A DNA stretch of 64,000 bases, taken from NCBI GenBank assembly GCA_963725255.1, contig CAVRXV010000012.1, positions 14,301 through 78,300 of the forward strand. The letters run 5' to 3'. Made by a program: the position numbers and the translations under genes. This stretch comes from an uncultured Gammaproteobacteria bacterium (lineage in GTDB: Bacteria; Pseudomonadota; Gammaproteobacteria; JAIEPX01). Every line of letters starts with the position of its first letter. Position 1 is the stretch's first letter. Below are positions 8,313 to 39,570 of the stretch, in pieces. A model generated the notes under the pieces. It was not told where the DNA came from and made no database searches. It saw nothing but the letters and a program-made list of their open reading frames with translations.

Positions 8313-10979
8313 ATGACTGATTCACCCATGATGGTTGATAATGATCCCTTAGAAACGCAAGATTGGCTTGAAGCATTGGCGTCCGTGATGAGAGTGGAAG
8401 GCGCTGAACGTGCGCGCTTCTTAGTGAGTTTATTGGCCTCACAAGTGAATTTAACAGCAGGACAAGGCGCTATTAATACGCCTTATGTGAACTCAATCAG
8501 AGTGTCAGATGAAGTGAAACTGCCTGATGATGGGGTGTTAGCTGAGCGTCTACAAGCACTGATTCGCTGGAATGCAAAAGCCATAGTACTTCGTGGAGGT
8601 AAGCGAGCTTCTGAGCTGGGTGGTCATATCGCAACGTATGCCTCTGCATCAACCTTATATGAAGTGGGTTTCAATCATTTTTTCCGTGGTCGGCAGTCTG
8701 ATTTTTTAGGCGATCTACTGTTTATTCAAGGTCATTCTTCTCCTGGTATTTATGCGCGTGCCTATTTAGAAGGTCGTATTAGTGCTGAACAATTAGATCA
8801 GTTTCGACAAGAAGTTGCAGGGAAAGGTCTTTCGTCTTATCCCCATCCCTGGTTGATGCCGAATTTTTGGCAATTTCCTACAGTTTCTATGGGACTCGGC
8901 CCACTTCAGGCAATTTATCAAGCGCGTTTTTTAAATTATCTTAGGCAATCGTGGTTTGGTAGACAATAAAAATCGTCAATGTATGGGTTTTTTGCGGCGA
9001 TGGTGAAATGGATGAGCCGGAATCAATGGGTGCATTATCCATTGCTGCGCGTGAAAAATTAGATAATCTTATTTTTGTCATTAATTGTAATTTGCAACGT
9101 CTTGATGGTCCTGTGCGAGGCAATGGCAAAATAATTCAAGAATTTGAAGGTGTTTTTCGCGGTGCGGGTTGGAATGTCATTAAAGTGATTTGGGGAAGTC
9201 GTTGGGATGCATTATTTGCCAAAGATACTCAAGGTATATTAGAGCAACGCATGGAGAATGTGTCGATGGTGAATATCAAAATTATAAAGCTAAAGATGGT
9301 GCTTATTTCCGCGAACATTTTTTTGGCAAATACTCCAGAATTAAAAGCGATGGTTGCCGATATGACGGATGAAGAGATATGGCATTTAAATCGCGGTGGT
9401 CATGATTCTACAAAAAGTATATGCCGCTTATCATGCGGCAGTGACTCATCAAGGCAAGCCACTGTTATTTTAGCCAAAACTGTTAAAGGTTATGGTATGG
9501 GAGCCGCCGGTGAAGGATTAAATATAACTCATCAACAAAAAAAAATGACGACAGAAGATTTAATAGCATTTCCGCGATCGATTTAAAATTCCCATTATCA
9601 GAAGAAGAAGTCGCTAAATTATCCTTTTATCGACCGCATGATGATGCGCCAGAAATGCAATATTTACAACAACGTCGAAAAGAATTGGGTGGATATTTAC
9701 CGCTCGATCTACAAGAATGTCCAAATCATTAGAAGTGCCTGCACTTGAAAAGCTTTTAAGCTTTATTAAAAGTCAGGGGATCGTGAAATTTCAACGACGA
9801 TGGCATTTGTGCGTATTTTGAGTATGTTACTTAAAGAAAAAAATATTGGACAACATATTGTGCCTATTGTTCCTGATGAATCTCGCACTTTTGGTATGGA
9901 AGGATTATTTCGACAAATTGGAATTTATTCTCCGAGTAGGTCAATTATATGAACCCGTTGATACAGATCAAGTGATGTATTATCGAGAAGAAAAAAGACG
10001 GGCAATATTTGCAAGAAGGTATTAGTGAAGCAGGAGCGATGTGCACATGGATGGCTGCTGCGACTTCGTATAGTACCAATAATGTTCCCGATGATTCCTT
10101 TTTATATTTATTATTCCATGTTTGGTTTTCAGCGGGTTGGTGGATTTAGCTTGGGCCGCTGGCGATATGCGTGCTCGAGGATTTTTGATGGGAGCAACCG
10201 CTGGTCGCACAACATTAGCAGGAGAAGGTTTGCAACATCAAGATGGTCATAGTCATGTGATGTCTGCGACTATTCCGAATTGTGTTAGCTTATGATCCGA
10301 CGTATGCCTATGAATTAGCCGTTATTATTCATGATGGAATGCGACGAATGGTCATGAACAAGAAGATGTTTTTTACTACATCACTGTAATGAATGAAAAT
10401 TATGCGCATCCTGCTATGCCAGCAGGAGTTGAAGAAGACATTATCAAAGGTCTGTATTTATTACGTGCGGCGAGTGGAAATAAATCTCATCAAGTGAATT
10501 TATTATCGTGTGGCGCGATTTTGCGTGAGGCAGAAGAAGCTGCAAAATTACTCAGTGAAGAAAATATTGACGCGAATGTATGGAGTGTCACCAGTTTTAC
10601 AGAACTTGCGCGAGAAGCATTGCATCATGAACGTGAAAATCGACTGCATCCTGAAAAAGAACCAGCTTTAAGTTTTGTAACAAAAACATTGATGGCTCAT
10701 CCTGGACCCGTAATAGCTGCTACAGATTATGTGCGTAGTTTTGTAGATCAAATTCGTGCATTTGTGCCATTTGATTATACGGTATTGGGTACCGATGGTT
10801 ATGGTCGAAGTGATACACGTGTCAATCTCCGTCATTTCTTTGAAGTCGATGCAAAAGCGATCGCGGCAACAGCAATGAGCGCGTTATGTCGCGAAGGTAA
10901 AATTGATGTTGCCACAGTGCAGCGTGCGATGACGAAGTGGGGTGTTGATCCCGCCAAACAGAATCCAGTAACAATGTAA
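8313..10979 (+). pseudogene. aceE: pyruvate dehydrogenase E1 component, multiply frame-disrupted
   Basis: AceE-like peptides are spread over all three + frames, for example [40 protein letters not shown] and [18 protein letters not shown]. By hand count there are about 16 frame changes between ~8935 and ~10350. Confidence 0.9.
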
Positions 10980-11001: not shown

Positions 11002-12546
11002 ATGATAAAGGAAATAACCATACCCGATATTGGTGGCGCAACAAATGTTGACGTCATTGAAGTTTCTGTGAAACCGGGTGATGTTGTCGCGAAAGAAGAT
11101 GCATTAATTACGCTTGAAGGTGATAAAGCCACGATGGAAATTCCATCGCCTTTTGCTGGAAAAATTGTCAGTGTGCAAGTGAAGGTGGGTGACAAACTCA
11201 GTGAAGGAAATTTAGTTGCAACAATTGAAGTAAGCGAAACGGAATCAACTGTATCAAATGAATCAGAAGAAAAAAAAGCATCTCCGCAAACAGTAGTAGT
11301 CCCTGATATTGGTGGTGCATCGAATGTCAATGTGATTCAAATTCATGTCGCTGTAGGCAGTGAAGTAATAAAAGAAGACCCTTTAATTACTTTGGAAGGT
11401 GAAAAAGCGACGATGGATATTCCCTCGCCTTTTTCAGGAAAAGTGACTGAAATTTTGGTGAATGTTGGAGCGAAAGTTTCAGAAGGTGATCCTATTGCAG
11501 TTGTTTTGGCTGTATCTGAAGGAGCACCTGCTAAAAAAGAATCAGTTGTTCAGAGTTCAGCACAGCAATCTTCTGAAAATATTCCTAAATCGGCACCCGC
11601 CATTTCTCCAATCCCGGTTTCTGCTCGAGGCATTTTGCCTGTTACACCACCCGGTGCTAATGTTCATGCAAGTCCTAGTGTTCGAAGGATCGCTCGCGAA
11701 TTTGGTGTAGATTTACGTTTAGTAAAAGGATCTGGTGCAAAATCACGTATTCTTAAAGAAGATGTGCAAGCCTTTGTGCGAGGTGAATTGGCAAAACCAC
11801 GTGGTGGCATTGGACTCGATTTAATTCCTGCACAAAAAGTGGATTTTGCAAAATTTGGTGCGATAGAAATTCAGCCACTGAATAAGATTAAAAAATTAAC
11901 GGGCGCAAATGTACATCGATCTTGGGTAACTATTCCGCACGTGACACAATTTGGTGAAGCCGACATTACGGCATTAGAAAAATTGCGAAAAGAACAAGCA
12001 GCAAAAGCTACTGAAAAAGGCGTAAAATTAACGCCGCTTGTTTATGTTATGAAAGCGGTAGTCGCAAGTTTAAAAGCGTATCCGACTTTTAACAGTTCAC
12101 TTGATGAGTCGGGTGAAAACTTAGTGATGAAAAAATATTTTCATTTGGGAATTGCCGTCGATACACCTAATGGATTAGTCGTTCCAGTGATTCGTGATGT
12201 TGATCAAAAAGATGTTTTTACTTTAGCGGATGAACTCGCAAAAATCAGTGCAAAAGCGAGAGAAAAAGGATTAACGCCTGTGGAAATGGCAGGAAGTTGT
12301 TTTACGATTTCAAGTTTAGGTGGCATCGGAGGTACTGCATTTACGCCAATAGTAAAAGCACCTGATGTTGCAATTTTAGGAGTTTCACGTTCGTCGATGA
12401 AGCCCGTTTATGAAAATGGTGAATTTGTGCCTCGTCTGATGTTGCCATTATCTTTATCTTATGATCATCGTGTCATTGATGGTGCTGATGGAGCGCGATT
12501 TATGGTTGATGTAGTGAATCGTTTGTCTGAACAAAATTGGGAGTAA
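11002..12546 (+). CDS. aceF: dihydrolipoamide acetyltransferase (PDH E2), two lipoyl domains
   Basis: Two copies of [13 protein letters not shown] / [13 protein letters not shown], a PSBD segment, and the catalytic DHRVIDGA motif. Confidence 0.95.
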
Positions 12547-12550
12547 AAAC

Positions 12551-13975
12551 ATGCCTGCAAGTAACACAATAAATGCTGATCTCGTTGTATTAGGTGCTGG
12601 ACCGGGAGGTTATTCAGCTGCCTATCGTGCTGCAGATTTATTTAAAGAAGAAAAATCTGGAAAAACTGTTGTCATGATCGATGATGGTGAAGCATTAGGT
12701 GGTGTTTGTTTAAATGTTGGTTGTATACCTTCGAAAGCCTATCTGCATATCGCAAAAGTATTAACAGAAACGCAAGAAATGGCTGCGCATGGAATTGATT
12801 TTGGTAGGCCAAAAATTGATGCTGACAAATTAAGAGCCTGGAAAAACAGTGTTGTTAAGCGATTAACCGGCGGACTTGATATGCTCGCTAAAAAACGAAA
12901 AGTCACTGTTGTTCAAGGGACGGGTAAATTTATTAGTCCCACTGAAATTGAAGTAGTTAAAGGTTCAGAAAAATCAATTGTAAAATTTTCACAATGCATT
13001 ATTGCAGCAGGTTCACGACCCATTAATTTACCCTTTATGCCCCAAGATCAGCGAATTATTGATTCTACTGGTGCGCTTGAATTACCTGAATTGAATTGCA
13101 AGTTATTAGTTTTGGGTGGTGGAATTATCGGATTAGAAATGGGTACGGTGTATGAGGCATTGGGTGCGGAAGTTCATGTCGTTGAATTCATGGATCAATT
13201 AATGCCCGGTGCAGATAAAGATCTTGTTGCTCCGTTACATAAACGCATGGAAAAACGCTTTAAGAGCATAATGCTCGAAACCAAAGTAACTGCAGTTGAA
13301 GCCAAAAAAGACGGATTGTATGTCACATTTGAAGGTAAAAATGCACCGTCTGGTCCACAAAAATTTGATTATATTTTACAATCTGTTGGGCGTCGTCCTA
13401 ATAGTGATCAATTATCATTGGAAAAAGCAGGTGTTTCTGTTGATCAGCGAGGATTTATCACGGTCGATAATCAGCAACGTACTAATGTTGCCAATATTTT
13501 TGCCATCGGTGATATCGTCGGCAATCCTATGCTTGCACATAAAGCAGTGCCCGAAGGACATCTTGCTGCTGAAGTCATTGCCGGCAAAAAACATATTTTC
13601 GATCCAAAATGTATTCCTTCTGTTGCTTACACTGATCCTGAAGTGGCGTGGGCAGGATTAACAGAAACTGAAGCAAAAGCAAAAGGGATTAAATATGGTA
13701 AAGGTGTATTCCCTTGGCTCGCGAATGGTCGTTCACTCAGTATGGGACGTAGCGAAGGACTCACTAAATTATTATTTGATCCAGATACAAAACGTATTTT
13801 GGGTGGTGGAATTACAGGTACCAATGCAGGTGATTTGATTTGTGAAATTGCCCTTGCAATTGAAATGGGTTGTGATGCTGAAGATATTGCGCTCACTATT
13901 CATCCTCATCCAACGCTGGGTGAAACAATAATGTTAGCAGCGGAAGTTTTTGAAGGTACAGTGACCGATTTGTAA
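12551..13975 (+). CDS. lpdA: dihydrolipoyl dehydrogenase (E3)
   Basis: GAGPGGY FAD motif, redox-active GGVCLNVGCIPSK, C-terminal HPHPTLGE. Confidence 0.95.
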   Translation: MPASNTINADLVVLGAGPGGYSAAYRAADLFKEEKSGKTVVMIDDGEALGGVCLNVGCIPSKAYLHIAKVLTETQEMAAHGIDFGRPKIDADKLRAWKNSVVKRLTGGLDMLAKKRKVTVVQGTGKFISPTEIEVVKGSEKSIVKFSQCIIAAGSRPINLPFMPQDQRIIDSTGALELPELNCKLLVLGGGIIGLEMGTVYEALGAEVHVVEFMDQLMPGADKDLVAPLHKRMEKRFKSIMLETKVTAVEAKKDGLYVTFEGKNAPSGPQKFDYILQSVGRRPNSDQLSLEKAGVSVDQRGFITVDNQQRTNVANIFAIGDIVGNPMLAHKAVPEGHLAAEVIAGKKHIFDPKCIPSVAYTDPEVAWAGLTETEAKAKGIKYGKGVFPWLANGRSLSMGRSEGLTKLLFDPDTKRILGGGITGTNAGDLICEIALAIEMGCDAEDIALTIHPHPTLGETIMLAAEVFEGTVTDL

Positions 13976-14228: not shown

Positions 14229-14248
14229 GGTGACCACTTTTGGAGATT

Positions 14249-14494
14249 ATGATGTTAAATACAGCCCATGAGATTTCTGCAACGGAATTCAAAGCAACCT
14301 GCTTAAAGGTAATGGATCAAGTGCATGATAAACATATAGAGTATGTTATTACAAAACATGGTAAACCGATTGCTATGATTATACCGGTGCCTGAGAGTGA
14401 AACTGCCGAGATATTTGGTTGTTTGGCAAATACGGCAACCATTCATGGAGATATTATATCTCCAATAAAAGATGAGTGGGAAGCGAATGAATAA
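14249..14494 (+). CDS. Phd/YefM-family antitoxin
   Basis: ORF track (TTG 14240). ATG 14249 lies after GGAG. The ISATEFKATCLKVMDQV...VITKHGKPIAMIIP pattern is present. It overlaps the toxin gene by 8 nt (ATGAATAA). Confidence 0.8.
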   Translation: MMLNTAHEISATEFKATCLKVMDQVHDKHIEYVITKHGKPIAMIIPVPESETAEIFGCLANTATIHGDIISPIKDEWEANE

Positions 14495-14900
14495 TCTTTT
14501 ATTAGATACGCATATTTGGCTATGGTTAGTGCTGGGTGATAAACATTTAAAAAAGTCTGCGATTACATCAATTAAAAAGGCATCTAAAAATCACACAATT
14601 TATGTGTCAGCAATATCGATGTGGGAAATTGCCATGTTGGAACATAACAAACGGATATCACTGGGTTGTCCTATTGATGAATGGCTTCACAGAGCTCTAA
14701 GTGCTCCAGGAATTAGTTTAGCTTCATTGTCTCCTGAGATAGTCATGGATAGTGTAAAAATGCCTGATCATTTTCACAAAGACCCTGCAGATAGAATTAT
14801 TGTTGCAACAGCACGTGTGATGAACTTGACCTTACTTACTCGGGATGAGCGTATTTTAAAGTATAGTAATCAAGGTTATGTTAACACTATTAATGGTTAA
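14487..14900 (+). CDS. vapC: PIN-domain toxin (VapC-like)
   Basis: LLLDTHIWLW ... SAISMWEIAML ... DPADRIIVATA ... LLTRDERI (PIN acidic residues). Confidence 0.85.
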   Translation: MNNLLLDTHIWLWLVLGDKHLKKSAITSIKKASKNHTIYVSAISMWEIAMLEHNKRISLGCPIDEWLHRALSAPGISLASLSPEIVMDSVKMPDHFHKDPADRIIVATARVMNLTLLTRDERILKYSNQGYVNTING

Positions 14901-28319: not shown

Positions 28320-29528
28320 CTACGAGGTGAGCTGGGTAATCGTTTTTTGCATGATCTGGGCTATTTCATCAATTTGATCGGCAGTGATGATCAGGGGTGG
28401 CGCGAGTCGAACCACTGTTTCATGGGTTTCTTTGCTGAGGAGCCCATTTTCCAAGAGCGCGAGGCAGACATCGCGTGCTGCATGATATTTTGGATCAATT
28501 TCAATGCCGATAAGCAATCCTTTGCCGCGAATGTCTTTAATGATTGGAGATTTGATTTGCTTTAAATGTTGCTGTAATCGATCGCCCATTGCTGCTGCAT
28601 TCTCAGAAAATTTTTCTTCTACAATAATATTCAGCGCTGTTAGACCAATGTTGGCTGAGAGTTCGTTGCCCCCAAAAGTACTGCCATGATCGCCTGGTTT
28701 AAAAACATCAAGAATATTTTTGTTTGCTAAAAATAATGAGACAGGCAACATTCCGCCTCCGAGTGCTTTGCCCAAAAGTATTCCATCAGGTTGAACATTC
28801 TCGTGCTGACACGCTAGCAATTTACCGGTGCGTCCAAGTCCCGTTTGAATTTCGTCGCAAATCATGAGCACGTTATTTTCGCCACAAATTTTTGCGCATT
28901 CTGCGAGATAGCCTTCAGGTGGGACAATAATTCCTGCTTCGCCTTGAATGGGTTCTACGAGAAAAGCCGCCGTATTTTTATTAATCGCTTTTTCCAGTGA
29001 TTTTGTATCGCCATAAGGAATTAATTTAAATCCTGGAGTGAGTGGGCCAAAGTTTTCGTAATATTGTGGTTCGGAAGAAAAACTAATGATGGTGGTAGTT
29101 CGGCCGTGAAAATTATTGTTGCACACAATGATTTCAGCTTTATTGTCAGGAACACCTTTAACAGTATAGGCCCATTTTCGTACTGCTTTAATTGCAACTT
29201 CGACGGCTTCTGCGCCTGAATTAAGCGGGCAACCTCCAAAATAGTTTGTAAGTTCGCAGGCCCTCTGCAAAAATTTTCCTAAAGTGGGTGAATAAAAAGC
29301 GCGTGAAGTGAGCGTTAATTGTTCCACTTGCTGTTGAATTTTTGCAACTAATTTTGGATGGCAATGACCATGTGATAATGCGGAATAAGCACTCATACAA
29401 TCGATGTATTGTTTTCCCTCTTCATCCCACACATGAATACCTTTTCCTTTTGTGATAACGACAGGTAGTGGTTTATAATAATTAGCACCGTAATGCTTTT
29501 CTCTATTTATCGTTTCGTTTGTGGTCAT
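28320..29528 (-). CDS. rocD: ornithine aminotransferase
   Basis: YGANYYKPLPVVITKGKGIHVWDEEGKQYIDCMSAYSALSHGHCHPK, DEIQTGLGRTGK. Start moved to ATG 29528 after AAGGAG. Confidence 0.85.
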   Translation of the reverse strand: MTTNETINREKHYGANYYKPLPVVITKGKGIHVWDEEGKQYIDCMSAYSALSHGHCHPKLVAKIQQQVEQLTLTSRAFYSPTLGKFLQRACELTNYFGGCPLNSGAEAVEVAIKAVRKWAYTVKGVPDNKAEIIVCNNNFHGRTTTIISFSSEPQYYENFGPLTPGFKLIPYGDTKSLEKAINKNTAAFLVEPIQGEAGIIVPPEGYLAECAKICGENNVLMICDEIQTGLGRTGKLLACQHENVQPDGILLGKALGGGMLPVSLFLANKNILDVFKPGDHGSTFGGNELSANIGLTALNIIVEEKFSENAAAMGDRLQQHLKQIKSPIIKDIRGKGLLIGIEIDPKYHAARDVCLALLENGLLSKETHETVVRLAPPLIITADQIDEIAQIMQKTITQLTS

Positions 29529-29541
29529 AATTCGCTTCTCC

Positions 29542-30420
29542 TTAAAATAGTGTTTCAATAAGATCAAAAATAATTTCTTCTGTTTGATGATTTTTATCGA
29601 GTGAAGGATTAAATTCTGCAATTTCAAGTCCAACTAAAAGTGGATGGTTATTCCATAATTTCATTGCGTTAAACAGTTGTTTCGATGATAATCCGTTAGG
29701 TGCAGGAGTTCCTACGCCGGGTGCTTCAATTGGATCGATCGCATCAAGATCAAAACTAATTCCGAATCCTGCAGTTCCTGTTGTGGCAATAGTCAGCGCT
29801 TCGCTTAAAACAATTTCGATTCCACGTTCATTTATTTCTTCCATGTAAAAAATGCGGACGTTGAGATGTTCGAGTAATTTTTTTTCTTCAGCCTCATAGG
29901 AACGTACGCCGATGAGACAAAGATGTTCTGGTTTAATTTTAGGTGTTGATGTTCGCACTGAGGTGAGTGAAGGATCACCATAACCTAGTAGCGTAGCGAG
30001 TGGCATGCCGTGAATGTTTTCTGAAGGCGTTGTTTCAGGTGTGTGGCTATCCATGTGTGCATCGACCCAAATTAACCCCAAATCTCCGCGTTTTGCTATT
30101 CCTGTAGAAGCACCACTCCAAGTTCCGATGGCTGAGCTGTGGTCACCGCCCAATGTGACAAAATGTTTGTCAGCACGCGATAATTTTTCAGTAGCCGTTG
30201 CCATTCGTACGTTGATGTCGTGTAAAAAAGGGAGTGCCTCTATACCATGAGCGCGTCCTGTTGGGTAAAAACATTCATAATCACTGATTAAATGGTTGAG
30301 CCGATGCATAGACCCAGAGTTAATAATCTGTTCGGGACCTTTCTCGGTGCCTGCTTGAGACGTGCCTAGATCGCAGGCGTACCCGAGTAGAGTAACTTTT
30401 CCGTTATTTGATTGAGGCAT
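29542..30420 (-). CDS. rocF: arginase (ureohydrolase family)
   Basis: Mn-binding motifs GGDHS, DAHMD, SFDLDAIDP. Ends 13 nt upstream of rocD. Confidence 0.8.
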   Translation of the reverse strand: MPQSNNGKVTLLGYACDLGTSQAGTEKGPEQIINSGSMHRLNHLISDYECFYPTGRAHGIEALPFLHDINVRMATATEKLSRADKHFVTLGGDHSSAIGTWSGASTGIAKRGDLGLIWVDAHMDSHTPETTPSENIHGMPLATLLGYGDPSLTSVRTSTPKIKPEHLCLIGVRSYEAEEKKLLEHLNVRIFYMEEINERGIEIVLSEALTIATTGTAGFGISFDLDAIDPIEAPGVGTPAPNGLSSKQLFNAMKLWNNHPLLVGLEIAEFNPSLDKNHQTEEIIFDLIETLF

Positions 30421-30441: not shown

Positions 30442-30513
30442 TGCTCCCTAGGGGAATCGAACCCCTGTTTGCGCCGTGAGAGGGCGACGTCCTAACCGCT
30501 AGACGAAGGGAGC
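30442..30513 (-). tRNA. tRNA-Glu, anticodon CUC
   Basis: Hand-folded cloverleaf: acceptor GCTCCCT/AGGGAGC, anticodon loop CTCTCAC, T-arm AGGGG-TTCGATT-CCCCT. Close to the E. coli tRNA-Glu body. No encoded CCA. Confidence 0.85.
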
Positions 30514-38926: not shown

Positions 38927-39570
38927 TTATTTAGTCCCGAATAATCGATCACCAGCGTCCCCTAATCCAGGTACCATGTACGCATCATCATTTAAATATT
39001 CATCTAATGCAGCCACATAAATAGGAATGTCACTAAACAGTGAGTTAAATACTGTTATGCCTTCAGGAACTGCAATAAGTGCTAAAAAGCGGATATTTTT
39101 ACGATCGATTCCTTGCTCTAATAAAATCTCAATGGCTCGTACAGCAGAGTGGCCAGTTGCTAACATGGGATCGAGAACAATAAACATTTGATTTTTATTT
39201 GTAGGAAGTTTGACAAAATATTCGATGGGTGATGTGATATCGGATCACGGTATAGTCCAATGTGGCCTTCATTCGCTGTAGGCATAAGTTCTCTGAGTGC
39301 ATCAGCCATGCCGAGGCCCGCTCTTAAAATAGGTATAATTGAAACATCATGATCATCAAAGACAAGACCCGATGTTTCAGTAATAGGAGTTTTGATCGTG
39401 ACAGCTTTAGTAGGGAAATCTTTAGTTAATTCGTAGCCCATCAAAAAAGTGATTTCTCGGAGTAATTGGCGAAATTGCCCTGATTTCGTTTCTTCCATCC
39501 TCATCAGCGTCAACTTATGTTGAATGAGTGGGTGGTTAATGACGTGTAGATTAGGGAAAGTTCGGTTCAT
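38927..39570 (-). pseudogene. upp: uracil phosphoribosyltransferase with one frameshift (~39240)
   Basis: The N-part ...GHIGLYRDP switches frame before PIEYFVKLP...[14 protein letters not shown]...[14 protein letters not shown]. The two track ORFs overlap at 39160-39187. Confidence 0.8.

What the first reader, a model, noticed from the sequence alone, without database searches (positions are those of the whole stretch)
8313..10979. aceE is riddled with ~16 frame changes confined to its central 1.4 kb, while aceF and lpdA are intact
AceE-like peptides can be followed through the whole gene, but the frame switches at roughly 8935, 8990, 9252, 9333, 9412, 9465, 9570, 9592, 9708, 9778, 9945, 9990, 10090, 10140, 10290 and 10348 (hand tracing against the remembered E. 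coli AceE sequence). Some switches are in homopolymers (T6 at ~8990, CCC at ~9592, the A-run at ~9990) and others are not. The first ~620 nt and last ~630 nt have none, and I saw no substitution-type stop. If real, the organism lacks PDH E1 while keeping E2 and E3, which points to recent loss and dependence on host acetyl-CoA or alternative routes. However, the tight clustering of indels is not what uniform neutral decay predicts. It is equally compatible with a locally error-prone stretch of the assembly.
Basis: partly seen in the sequence, partly recalled or inferred. Interest (0 to 1): 0.6.

Follow-up and report, generated by a model that had tools for sequence, protein, structure and literature searches.

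The report
aceE frameshifts are a chimeric-consensus artefact
The 16 frame breaks in the pyruvate dehydrogenase E1 gene are really in the file, but they lie in a sharply bounded 1.4-kb block where the metagenome assembly blended this bacterium's gene with aceE from other bacteria, so this is almost certainly an assembly error and not a dying gene.

Summary
The gene's flanks have none.

The gene-loss reading is not supported. Read across the shifts, the block keeps 227 of 228 near-invariant AceE residues and has no stop on the best path. It carries 55 private amino-acid changes, against 4 in its closest relative. The flanks give 1 v 1 and 3 v 4, aceF 8 v 10, and lpdA 5 v 6.

Most of the 55 changes go to Legionella-type residues and erase deep signature residues of the organism's own clade. 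Synonymous sites stay own-clade-like. Where the clade's base differs from a base held by over 90% of 57 diverse aceE genes, the window has switched at 22 of 24 sites in the block and 0 of 9 in the flanks.

Ten of the 11 extra bases are the own allele and the foreign allele written side by side. None changes a homopolymer's length. Near-conspecific metagenome populations lack every indel that their contigs cover.

Best reading: a mixed-read (cross-mapped) consensus in a metagenome-assembled genome (MAG). Confidence 0.85. The source reads were not available.

The parts
8313..10979 (+). aceE (pyruvate dehydrogenase E1, homodimeric type). 889 codons, with start and stop in the same frame.
   Evidence: The read-through translation scores 1425.8 bits on TIGR00759 (cut-off 859.9), matching profile positions 4-884 of 885. 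It is 88% identical over 100% of its length to intact P0001. The locus is syntenic with L081: ampD-ampE-aceE-aceF-lpdA.
8313..8938 (+). Clean 5' block of aceE, own lineage.
   Evidence: No frameshift. 96% aa and about 92% nt identity to L081. dN/dS 0.06. One private aa change against one in the sister.
8939..10354 (+). Chimeric block. Holds all 16 frame changes plus the substitutions towards the foreign consensus.
   Evidence: There are 55 v 4 private aa changes. 22 of 24 clade-specific bases at universally conserved sites are switched. Own and foreign alleles are written in tandem.
10355..10979 (+). Clean 3' block of aceE, own lineage.
   Evidence: No frameshift. 96% aa identity to L081. dN/dS 0.08. 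3 v 4 private changes.
8939..8940 (+). +1 site: TA[T][C] TTA.
   Evidence: The alleles TAT and TAC of one codon are both written.
8979..8980 (+). +1 site: CA[A][T].
   Evidence: Own CAT and foreign AAA/AAG. Both third letters are written.
9254..9255 (+). -1 site: 2 nt where a codon is expected (ATG GA|GAA TGT).
   Evidence: Own GTG AAT against foreign GAA GAA, merged with one base lost.
9325..9334 (+). Legionella-type GGC AAA TAC, including a codon that the own clade lacks, followed by an extra T (+1).
   Evidence: The clade has AAT ACA ---. L002 has GGG AAA TAC. The TAC and TAT alleles are written in tandem.
9407..9410 (+). +1 site: TCT+A.
   Evidence: Foreign TCT (as in L008) merged with own TTA.
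9462..9463 (+). -1 site: CT where a codon is expected.
   Evidence: Own GTT against foreign ACC/ACA.
9571..9578 (+). +1 site: TT[T][C], followed by foreign-type CGC GAT.
   Evidence: The own sequence is TTT AAA CAA. The foreign consensus is TTC CGC GAC.
9597..9598 (+). +1 site: [A][T]CA.
   Evidence: Own ACA and foreign TCx. Both first letters are written.
9703..9775 (+). Messiest stretch. It has -1 sites at 9703-04 and 9774-75, plus probable compensating indels near 9712, 9726-27, 9753-58 and 9772.
   Evidence: Only 65% nt identity to L081. The DNA alignment places extra and missing bases here.
9935..9938 (+). +1 site: A+GTA.
   Evidence: Own AGT overlapped with foreign GTA (L002 and L008).
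9989..9990 (+). +1 site: GA[A][G], just before an A6 run of unchanged length.
   Evidence: Own GAG and Legionella-type GAA. An X3 contig lacks the extra base.
10086..10087 (+). +1 site: GT[T][C] CCG.
   Evidence: Two third-position letters are written in tandem. An X3 contig lacks the extra base.
10139..10142 (+). +1 site: GGT+G.
   Evidence: Foreign GGT followed by the last G of own ATG. X1 and X3 contigs lack one base here.
10289..10290 (+). +1 site: AG[C][T].
   Evidence: Foreign xCC and own AGT. X1 and X3 contigs lack the extra base.
10351..10355 (+). -1 site: GTC A-T.
   Evidence: The own sequence is GTC ACT. X1, X21 and X3 contigs carry the missing C.
11002..13975 (+). aceF and lpdA, intact and evolving clock-like.
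   Evidence: Pfam domains are complete. Private changes, window v L081, are 8 v 10 for aceF and 5 v 6 for lpdA.

Best explanation
Window 8939-10354 is an in-silico chimeric consensus. The organism is an uncultured Legionellales-like gammaproteobacterium known from a metagenome-assembled genome (MAG).

Proposed mechanism:
- The central part of aceE is the most conserved part of a very conserved gene.
- During assembly or polishing, sequences of other bacteria's aceE (mainly Legionella-type) were piled onto this contig there.
- Where the foreign sequences agree with each other (conserved first and second codon positions), they outvoted the organism's own base.
- Where they disagree among themselves (synonymous sites), the own base kept the plurality.
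- Where own and foreign differ by several letters, the consensus wrote both alleles next to each other (+1) or dropped a letter (-1). This gave 16 or more frame breaks.

The real gene is most likely an intact aceE of about 884-886 codons with clade-type residues.

What is shown: the mosaic, its direction, its boundaries, the tandem alleles, and the absence of the checkable indels in relatives. What is inferred: that the mixing happened in software and not in a cell, and that long reads and polishing were involved.
For: (1) Conservation. 227 of 228 columns that are at least 98% conserved among 120 AceE homologues are kept in the block, the same as in intact controls. There is no stop on the best path.

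(2) One-sided change. Private aa changes, window v sister P0001, with P0002-4 as outgroups:
- block: 55 v 4
- flanks: 1 v 1 and 3 v 4
- aceF: 8 v 10
- lpdA: 5 v 6

(3) Direction of change.
- 34 of the 55 changes go to residues common in 113 Legionella-type AceE proteins, and 45 of 55 are seen in at least one of 111 of these proteins (the set without P0008 and P0009).
- The block's identity to Legionella-type proteins is 0.754, against 0.677 for P0001. The two values are equal in the flanks.
- Signature residues shared by P0001-P0009 are replaced by the Legionella-type state: N250, V274, N315, M321, V325, N338, L355, M376, Q388, G574, A576, M608, T641 and L651.

(4) Dose-response. I took sites where the clade base (L081 = L084) differs from the majority base of 57 diverse aceE genes, and counted switches to that majority.
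- Block, majority above 0.9: 22 of 24.
- Block, 0.8-0.9: 11 of 44.
- Block, 0.7-0.8: 14 of 93.
- Block, below 0.7: about 7-12%.
- Flanks, majority above 0.9: 0 of 9.

(5) No foreign tracts. Among codons with the same amino acid, the fraction with a synonymous difference is 0.215 in the block and 0.185 and 0.152 in the flanks. It is 0.17 right next to replaced codons. No single database protein explains more than 33 of the 55 changes.

(6) Tandem alleles. Ten of 11 extra bases are the own and the foreign allele written side by side. Chance is P = 2e-4 under a generous null. The window also carries a Legionella-type codon that the whole clade lacks (9325-9333).

(7) Cross-mapping potential. In four public metagenomes, foreign contigs of at least 80% identity pile up 5 to 20 times deeper than the own lineage only over about 8777-10441. 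This matches the block.

(8) Relatives. Near-conspecific populations (X1 and X21, 96-99% identical in the flanks) and an X3 population of about 92% lack every indel their contigs cover: 9938, 9990, 10087, 10139-42, 10289 and 10354. They also have clade-type letters at 9758-9787.

(9) Background. Errors of this general kind in long-read metagenome assemblies are documented: chimeras, sequences unsupported by any read, and indels that break ORFs (bioRxiv 10.1101/2025.04.22.649783).
Against: - The reads behind this assembly could not be found. No read-level proof exists, and the sequencing platform is unknown to me.
- Third codon positions switch less often than first and second positions at the same panel frequency. 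A pure vote model predicts this only if the real cross-mapping community differs from my 57-gene panel.
- Earlier notes list other multiply frameshifted genes in this genome (kdpA/B, miaB). These could mean that genuine gene decay goes on in this lineage (untested).
- aceF and lpdA are also conserved, yet they are unaffected.
Confidence: 0.85

Rival explanations
1. The mosaic is real. The block exists on real DNA molecules. aceE of this bacterium took up foreign aceE DNA, and dense template switching or patchy heteroduplex repair produced a fine mosaic with junction errors. This killed E1 while E2 and E3 remain.
For: - The foreign contribution is certain.
- The lineage looks host-associated and may tolerate loss of PDH.
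- Other broken genes are noted in this genome.
- The indels are private to this assembly, as a very recent event would be.
Against: - A real donor tract would carry its synonymous differences along, and none is seen next to replaced codons.
- Switching depends steeply on how conserved the base is across many bacteria. A single donor would give about 73% switching in the 0.7-0.8 bin, and 15% is observed.
- No single relative explains more than 33 of 55 changes.
- I know of no recombination or repair product that writes two alleles in tandem at ten sites.
Confidence: 0.07
2. Ordinary pseudogene. aceE was inactivated and has since decayed neutrally by indels and substitutions.
For: - There are sixteen frameshifts.
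- dN/dS rises to 0.25 in the block.
- The excess of synonymous and nonsynonymous change is roughly neutral in ratio.
Against: - All lesions lie in 53% of the gene (P = 4e-5). The flanks stay at dN/dS 0.06-0.08.
- Only 1 of 228 invariant residues is changed, where about 40 or more would be expected at that nonsynonymous divergence (the expectation is my estimate).
- There is no stop on the best path.
- 62% of the changes converge on Legionella-type residues, and half are multi-nucleotide codon changes.
- Relatives 96-99% identical in the flanks lack the indels that could be checked.
Confidence: 0.02
3. Plain local sequencing noise. The block is a low-coverage or unpolished stretch with random read errors, with no foreign DNA involved.
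For: - The indels are clustered in an otherwise clean contig.
- The single frameshifts in upp and yicC are also absent from relatives. This is compatible with scattered residual errors.
Against: - Random errors would hit invariant residues and create stops.
- They would not be directed towards the foreign consensus or erase clade signatures.
- None of the indels is a homopolymer-length error.
Confidence: 0.05
4. Programmed recoding. The gene is expressed through ribosomal frameshifting or transcriptional slippage at the 16 sites.
For: The read-through product is a perfectly conserved full-length AceE.
Against: - The 16 sites go in both directions and share no motif.
- There are no slippery runs at the sites.
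- The sites are absent from all relatives, including near-conspecific ones.
Confidence: 0.01

Closest known systems
Chimeric or mis-polished consensus in long-read metagenome assemblies (cross-mapping at conserved genes; error classes in Trigodet et al., bioRxiv 10.1101/2025.04.22.649783)
   Same: - The block is sharply bounded, inside a highly conserved gene, in an otherwise clean MAG contig.
- It mixes two or more sources.
- Indels break the ORF.
- The sequence was found in no public run searched.
   Different: - That paper documents contig-scale chimeras, haplotype errors, phantom sequence and indels in PacBio HiFi assemblies. Its text (as searched) does not describe this base-by-base vote between a genome and a multi-species background.
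- The platform and pipeline of this assembly are unknown to me.
Collapsed-strain consensus artefacts noted earlier in this scan (e1-2357051 murC/murG, e1-2345717 tuf/rpl genes, e1-3316678 cytochrome b)
   Same: - Frameshift clusters confined to conserved genes.
- Extra bases that are the other allele written beside the first.
- Intact versions in relatives.
   Different: - Those are AI notes on other genomes that I did not check.
- Here the second source is not a co-occurring strain. It is family-level foreign (Legionella-type) sequence, apparently from several taxa.
Natural mosaic genes made by interspecies recombination (penA of Neisseria, pbp genes of pneumococci; from my own knowledge)
   Same: A central segment of a housekeeping gene carries residues of another lineage between own-lineage flanks.
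   Different: Natural mosaics are in frame and are built of contiguous donor tracts that include the donor's synonymous differences. Here there are no tracts, the synonymous sites stay own-lineage, and there are 16 frameshifts.
Multiply frameshifted pseudogenes of host-restricted bacteria (for example Coxiella, Sodalis, Mycobacterium leprae; from my own knowledge)
   Same: Many indels in one metabolic gene while the neighbouring genes are intact.
   Different: Real pseudogenes lose conserved residues, gain stops, and decay along their whole length. None of this is seen here.

Membership tests
AceE, pyruvate dehydrogenase E1, homodimeric type (TIGR00759): the underlying gene | Full-length match above the curated cut-off | tested here: met
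   The read-through translation scores 1425.8 bits against a cut-off of 859.9, over profile positions 4-884 of 885. It is 88% identical to P0001 over 100% of its length.
AceE, pyruvate dehydrogenase E1, homodimeric type (TIGR00759): the underlying gene | Operon context aceE-aceF-lpdA | tested here: met
   aceF has lipoyl, E3-binding and catalytic domains. lpdA is complete. The order is the same in L081 and L084.
AceE, pyruvate dehydrogenase E1, homodimeric type (TIGR00759): the underlying gene | One uninterrupted reading frame in the deposited sequence | tested here: not met
   There are 16 frame changes. I attribute this to the assembly and not to the organism.
Neutral-decay pseudogene | Lesions spread over the whole gene | tested here: not met
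   All 16 lie within 8939-10354. P = 4e-5.
Neutral-decay pseudogene | Loss of conserved residues and appearance of stop codons | tested here: not met
   1 of 228 near-invariant columns is changed, as in intact controls. There is no stop on the best path.
Neutral-decay pseudogene | Undirected substitutions | tested here: not met
   34 of 55 changes go to common Legionella-type residues. 22 of 24 switches occur at universally conserved sites.
Neutral-decay pseudogene | Lesions shared by close relatives or independent isolates | tested here: not met
   X1, X21 and X3 contigs, L081 and L084 all lack them where covered.
Chimeric (mixed-source) consensus artefact | Sharply bounded block with clean own-lineage flanks | tested here: met
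   Private changes and indels both start at about 8939 and end at about 10354.
Chimeric (mixed-source) consensus artefact | Alleles of two sources written next to each other at indel sites | tested here: met
   This holds at 10 of 11 +1 sites. P = 2e-4 under a generous null.
Chimeric (mixed-source) consensus artefact | Block coincides with the stretch where foreign sequence is similar enough to be recruited | tested here: met
   Foreign contigs of at least 80% identity pile up only over about 8777-10441 in four metagenomes.
Chimeric (mixed-source) consensus artefact | Source reads show a mixed pile-up, and own-lineage reads give an intact gene | not testable with these tools
   No public run holds the contig. 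The best share of 31-letter words is 0.17 for the flanks and 0.03 for the block.
Natural interspecies mosaic gene | Contiguous donor tracts carrying the donor's synonymous differences | tested here: not met
   The synonymous-difference rate is flat, 0.17 next to replaced codons. The single-donor expectation fails.
Programmed frameshifting or transcriptional slippage | Conserved slippery motif or homopolymer at the site, shared by relatives | tested here: not met
   There is no common motif, no change in run length, and the sites are absent from relatives.

The most novel reading that the evidence does not exclude
The mosaic sits on real DNA molecules. An intracellular Legionellales-like bacterium took up aceE DNA from other Legionellales. 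Dense template switching or very-short-patch repair of the heteroduplex produced a codon-scale mosaic with ±1 junction errors. This destroyed PDH E1 in one strain, while E2 and E3 stay intact.
Probability: 0.06. Interest if true: 0.65.

Novelty: not a real feature. Interest (0 to 1): 0.08.

Why it matters
The value is mainly as a warning. Taken at face value, this gene would lead to a false metabolic inference (loss of pyruvate dehydrogenase and dependence on the host) for a poorly known lineage of intracellular bacteria. It would also add to an inflated pseudogene count for that lineage.

The tests used here give a reusable way to separate blended consensus from real gene decay when no reads are at hand:
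- counting private changes on each branch against a sister genome;
- checking whether near-invariant residues are retained;
- measuring switching as a function of how conserved a base is in other taxa;
- looking for own and foreign alleles written in tandem.

Other multiply frameshifted conserved genes noted in this genome (kdpA/B, miaB) should be re-examined in the same way before they are called pseudogenes.

Tried and rejected
- Plain tblastn read through the shifts and merged frames. I replaced it with my own frameshift-aware dynamic programme.
I could not search the genome for a second aceE, PFOR or pyruvate formate-lyase. I also could not test other conserved genes of this genome.
- Three searches for sequencing runs did not find the source sample. 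The best share of words was 0.17, so read-level proof was impossible.
- The first family alignment timed out. I repeated it with a faster setting.
- I first favoured simple sequencing error because the translation looked conserved. I then weighed a real pseudogene, when identity to L081 dropped in the block and earlier notes listed other broken genes. Both readings fell to the invariant-residue and direction tests.
- I considered a recombination tract from a basal lineage and rejected it. Synonymous distance to L081 in the block (dS 0.46) is half that between L081 and L084 (0.95).
- I rejected a single Legionella-type donor.
- I rejected a short-read de Bruijn chimera by reasoning. Paths that switch at shared k-mers stay in register and cannot create frameshifts.
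- I found no methylation-motif or common sequence context at the indels.
Full report
**Observation.** The region 8313-10979 begins with an ATG and ends with a stop in the same frame (2667 nt, 889 codons), but it is cut into many short ORFs. I aligned four intact AceE proteins to the DNA with a dynamic programme that allows frame changes. The proteins came from relatives found with the clean N-terminal part. Each gave exactly 16 changes, at about 8940, 8980, 9255, 9334, 9410, 9463, 9571, 9597, 9704, 9775, 9935, 9990, 10087, 10142, 10290 and 10352. Eleven are +1 and five are -1.

The first 626 nt and last 625 nt have no change. aceF and lpdA are intact. The rest of the 64-kb window is densely packed with long ORFs. 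It has only two other frameshifts, in upp and yicC. The clustering is far from chance: (1416/2667)^16 = 4e-5.

In the DNA alignments, the T6, CCC and A6 runs have the same length as in intact relatives.

**Who it is, and the comparators.** The translation read across the shifts is a full-length AceE (TIGR00759, 1425.8 bits, cut-off 859.9). Its closest relatives are intact 883-890-aa proteins of uncultured gammaproteobacteria: P0001 at 88%, P0002-P0004 at 84-85%, and P0005-P0007 at 80-81%. Next come P0008 and P0009 at 71%, and Legionella-type proteins at about 67-69%. P0001 lies in a MAG contig (L081) that is syntenic with the window, with the order ampD-ampE-aceE-aceF-lpdA and a phd/PIN pair downstream. 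P0003 gives a second locus, L084. The flanking genes are about 91% identical to L081 at the DNA level.

**Not decay.** Against L081, the flanks of aceE have dN 0.02, dS 0.3 and dN/dS 0.06-0.08. The block has dN 0.115, dS 0.46 and dN/dS 0.25. That looked at first like relaxed selection. Three results rule this out:
- Of 228 columns that are at least 98% conserved among 120 homologues, the block changes one. That is the same as intact controls.
- There is no stop on the best path.
- With P0002-4 as outgroups, the window branch has 55 amino-acid changes in the block against 4 on the P0001 branch. The flanks give 1 v 1 and 3 v 4. aceF gives 8 v 10 and lpdA 5 v 6.

**The changes have a direction.**
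- 34 of the 55 go to a residue common in 113 Legionella-type proteins. 45 of 55 occur in at least one of 111 of these proteins (the set without P0008 and P0009).
- The block's mean identity to Legionella-type proteins is 0.754, against 0.677 for P0001. In the flanks the two values are equal.
- Signature residues shared by the whole deep clade P0001-P0009 are replaced by the Legionella-type state. These are N250, V274, N315, M321, V325, N338, L355, M376, Q388, G574, A576, M608, T641 and L651.
- At 9325-9333 the window even carries a Legionella-type codon that the clade lacks.

Descent with modification cannot produce this pattern. Foreign aceE information is present in the block.

**Not a recombination tract.**
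- Synonymous distance to L081 in the block (0.46) is half the L081-L084 distance (0.95). The backbone is therefore still the sister of L081.
- Codons that keep the same amino acid differ synonymously at 0.215 in the block, against 0.185 and 0.152 in the flanks. Right beside replaced codons the value is 0.17. So the foreign residues did not bring neighbouring donor DNA with them.
- I took nucleotide sites where the clade base (L081 = L084) differs from the majority base of 57 diverse aceE genes, and counted how often the window has switched to that majority. The result was 22 of 24 when the majority exceeds 0.9, then 11 of 44, 14 of 93, and about 7-12% at lower majorities. In the flanks it was 0 of 9 at majorities above 0.9.
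- A single donor that converted nearly all of the first class would convert about three quarters of the 0.7-0.8 class. Only 15% is observed.
- No database protein explains more than 33 of the 55 changes.

A vote explains the pattern. Where many foreign sequences agree, they win. Where they disagree among themselves, the own base keeps the plurality.

**The indels themselves.** Ten of the 11 extra bases are the own allele and the foreign allele of one position, or two overlapping codons, written next to each other. Examples:
- TA[T][C]
- CA[A][T]
- TT[T][C]
- [A][T]CA
- A+GTA (own AGT overlapped with foreign GTA)
- GA[A][G]
- GGT+G (foreign GGT, own ATG)
- AG[C][T]

Under a generous null, the chance of this is 2e-4. 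The missing bases lie where own and foreign differ by several letters. This is how a consensus caller mis-resolves a mixed pile-up. I know of no mutational process that does this.

**Independent populations.** No public run holds the contig. Only 3% of the block's 31-letter words are found anywhere. One sediment sample (X1, X21) holds a population 96-99% identical in the flanks, and a bioreactor sample (X3) holds one of about 92%. Their contigs lack every indel they cover: 9938, 9990, 10087, 10139-42, 10289 and 10354. They also have clade-type letters at 9758-9787.

In the same metagenomes, foreign contigs of at least 80% identity stack 5 to 20 times deeper than the own lineage only over about 8777-10441. 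This is the very interval of the block, and it shows that this stretch is where cross-recruitment happens.

**Conclusion.** The block is best read as a chimeric consensus made during assembly or polishing of a MAG (confidence 0.85). Errors of this general class in long-read metagenome assemblies are documented. They include chimeras, sequence not supported by reads, and indels that break ORFs (bioRxiv 10.1101/2025.04.22.649783). Earlier notes of this scan describe similar cases in other MAGs; I did not check those notes.

**What remains open.** The platform is unknown and the reads are missing. Third codon positions switch less than my panel frequencies predict. I attribute this to the panel not being the real community. 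For the same reason I could not look for a second aceE, PFOR or pyruvate formate-lyase.

**Rivals.**
- A real in-vivo mosaic: 0.07.
- Plain sequencing noise: 0.05.
- Neutral pseudogene decay: 0.02.
- Programmed recoding: 0.01.

The finding is not a biological feature, and I score its interest low.

Noticed in passing
window 38927-39570 (- strand), break near 39225: upp (uracil phosphoribosyltransferase) is split by a single missing base, around GAT CC|G ATA TCA on the coding strand. Contigs of the near-conspecific population (X1, X21) and of X3 carry one more base there, so their upp is intact. This is probably another consensus error.
   Followed up: partly
window 51502-52408 (+), break at 51789/51790: The YicC-family endoribonuclease gene is split by one extra base. 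One piece matches profile positions 1-85 and the other 106-291. X21 and X3 contigs lack that base.
   Followed up: partly
same genome, other windows (earlier notes e1-1483632, e1-3230838): kdpA/kdpB (at least 7 frameshifts) and miaB (3 frameshifts) are noted as decaying. Both are conserved genes and might carry the same blended-consensus signature as aceE.
   Followed up: no
window 6966-7985 (- strand): A 339-aa ORF with no Pfam hit lies between ampE and aceE. It is absent from the syntenic relative L081.
   Followed up: no
window 14240-14900 (+): A Phd-family antitoxin ORF overlaps a 142-aa ORF. The equivalent pair in L081 is PhdYeFM plus PIN. This is an ordinary type II toxin-antitoxin pair downstream of lpdA.
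   Followed up: no
window 28320-30420 (- strand), tRNA at 30442-30513: An arginase gene and an ornithine-oxo-acid transaminase gene are adjacent. Their listed ORFs overlap by 92 nt, and both have full-length family matches, so they are two genes and not a frameshift. A tRNA gene lies just upstream.
   Followed up: partly
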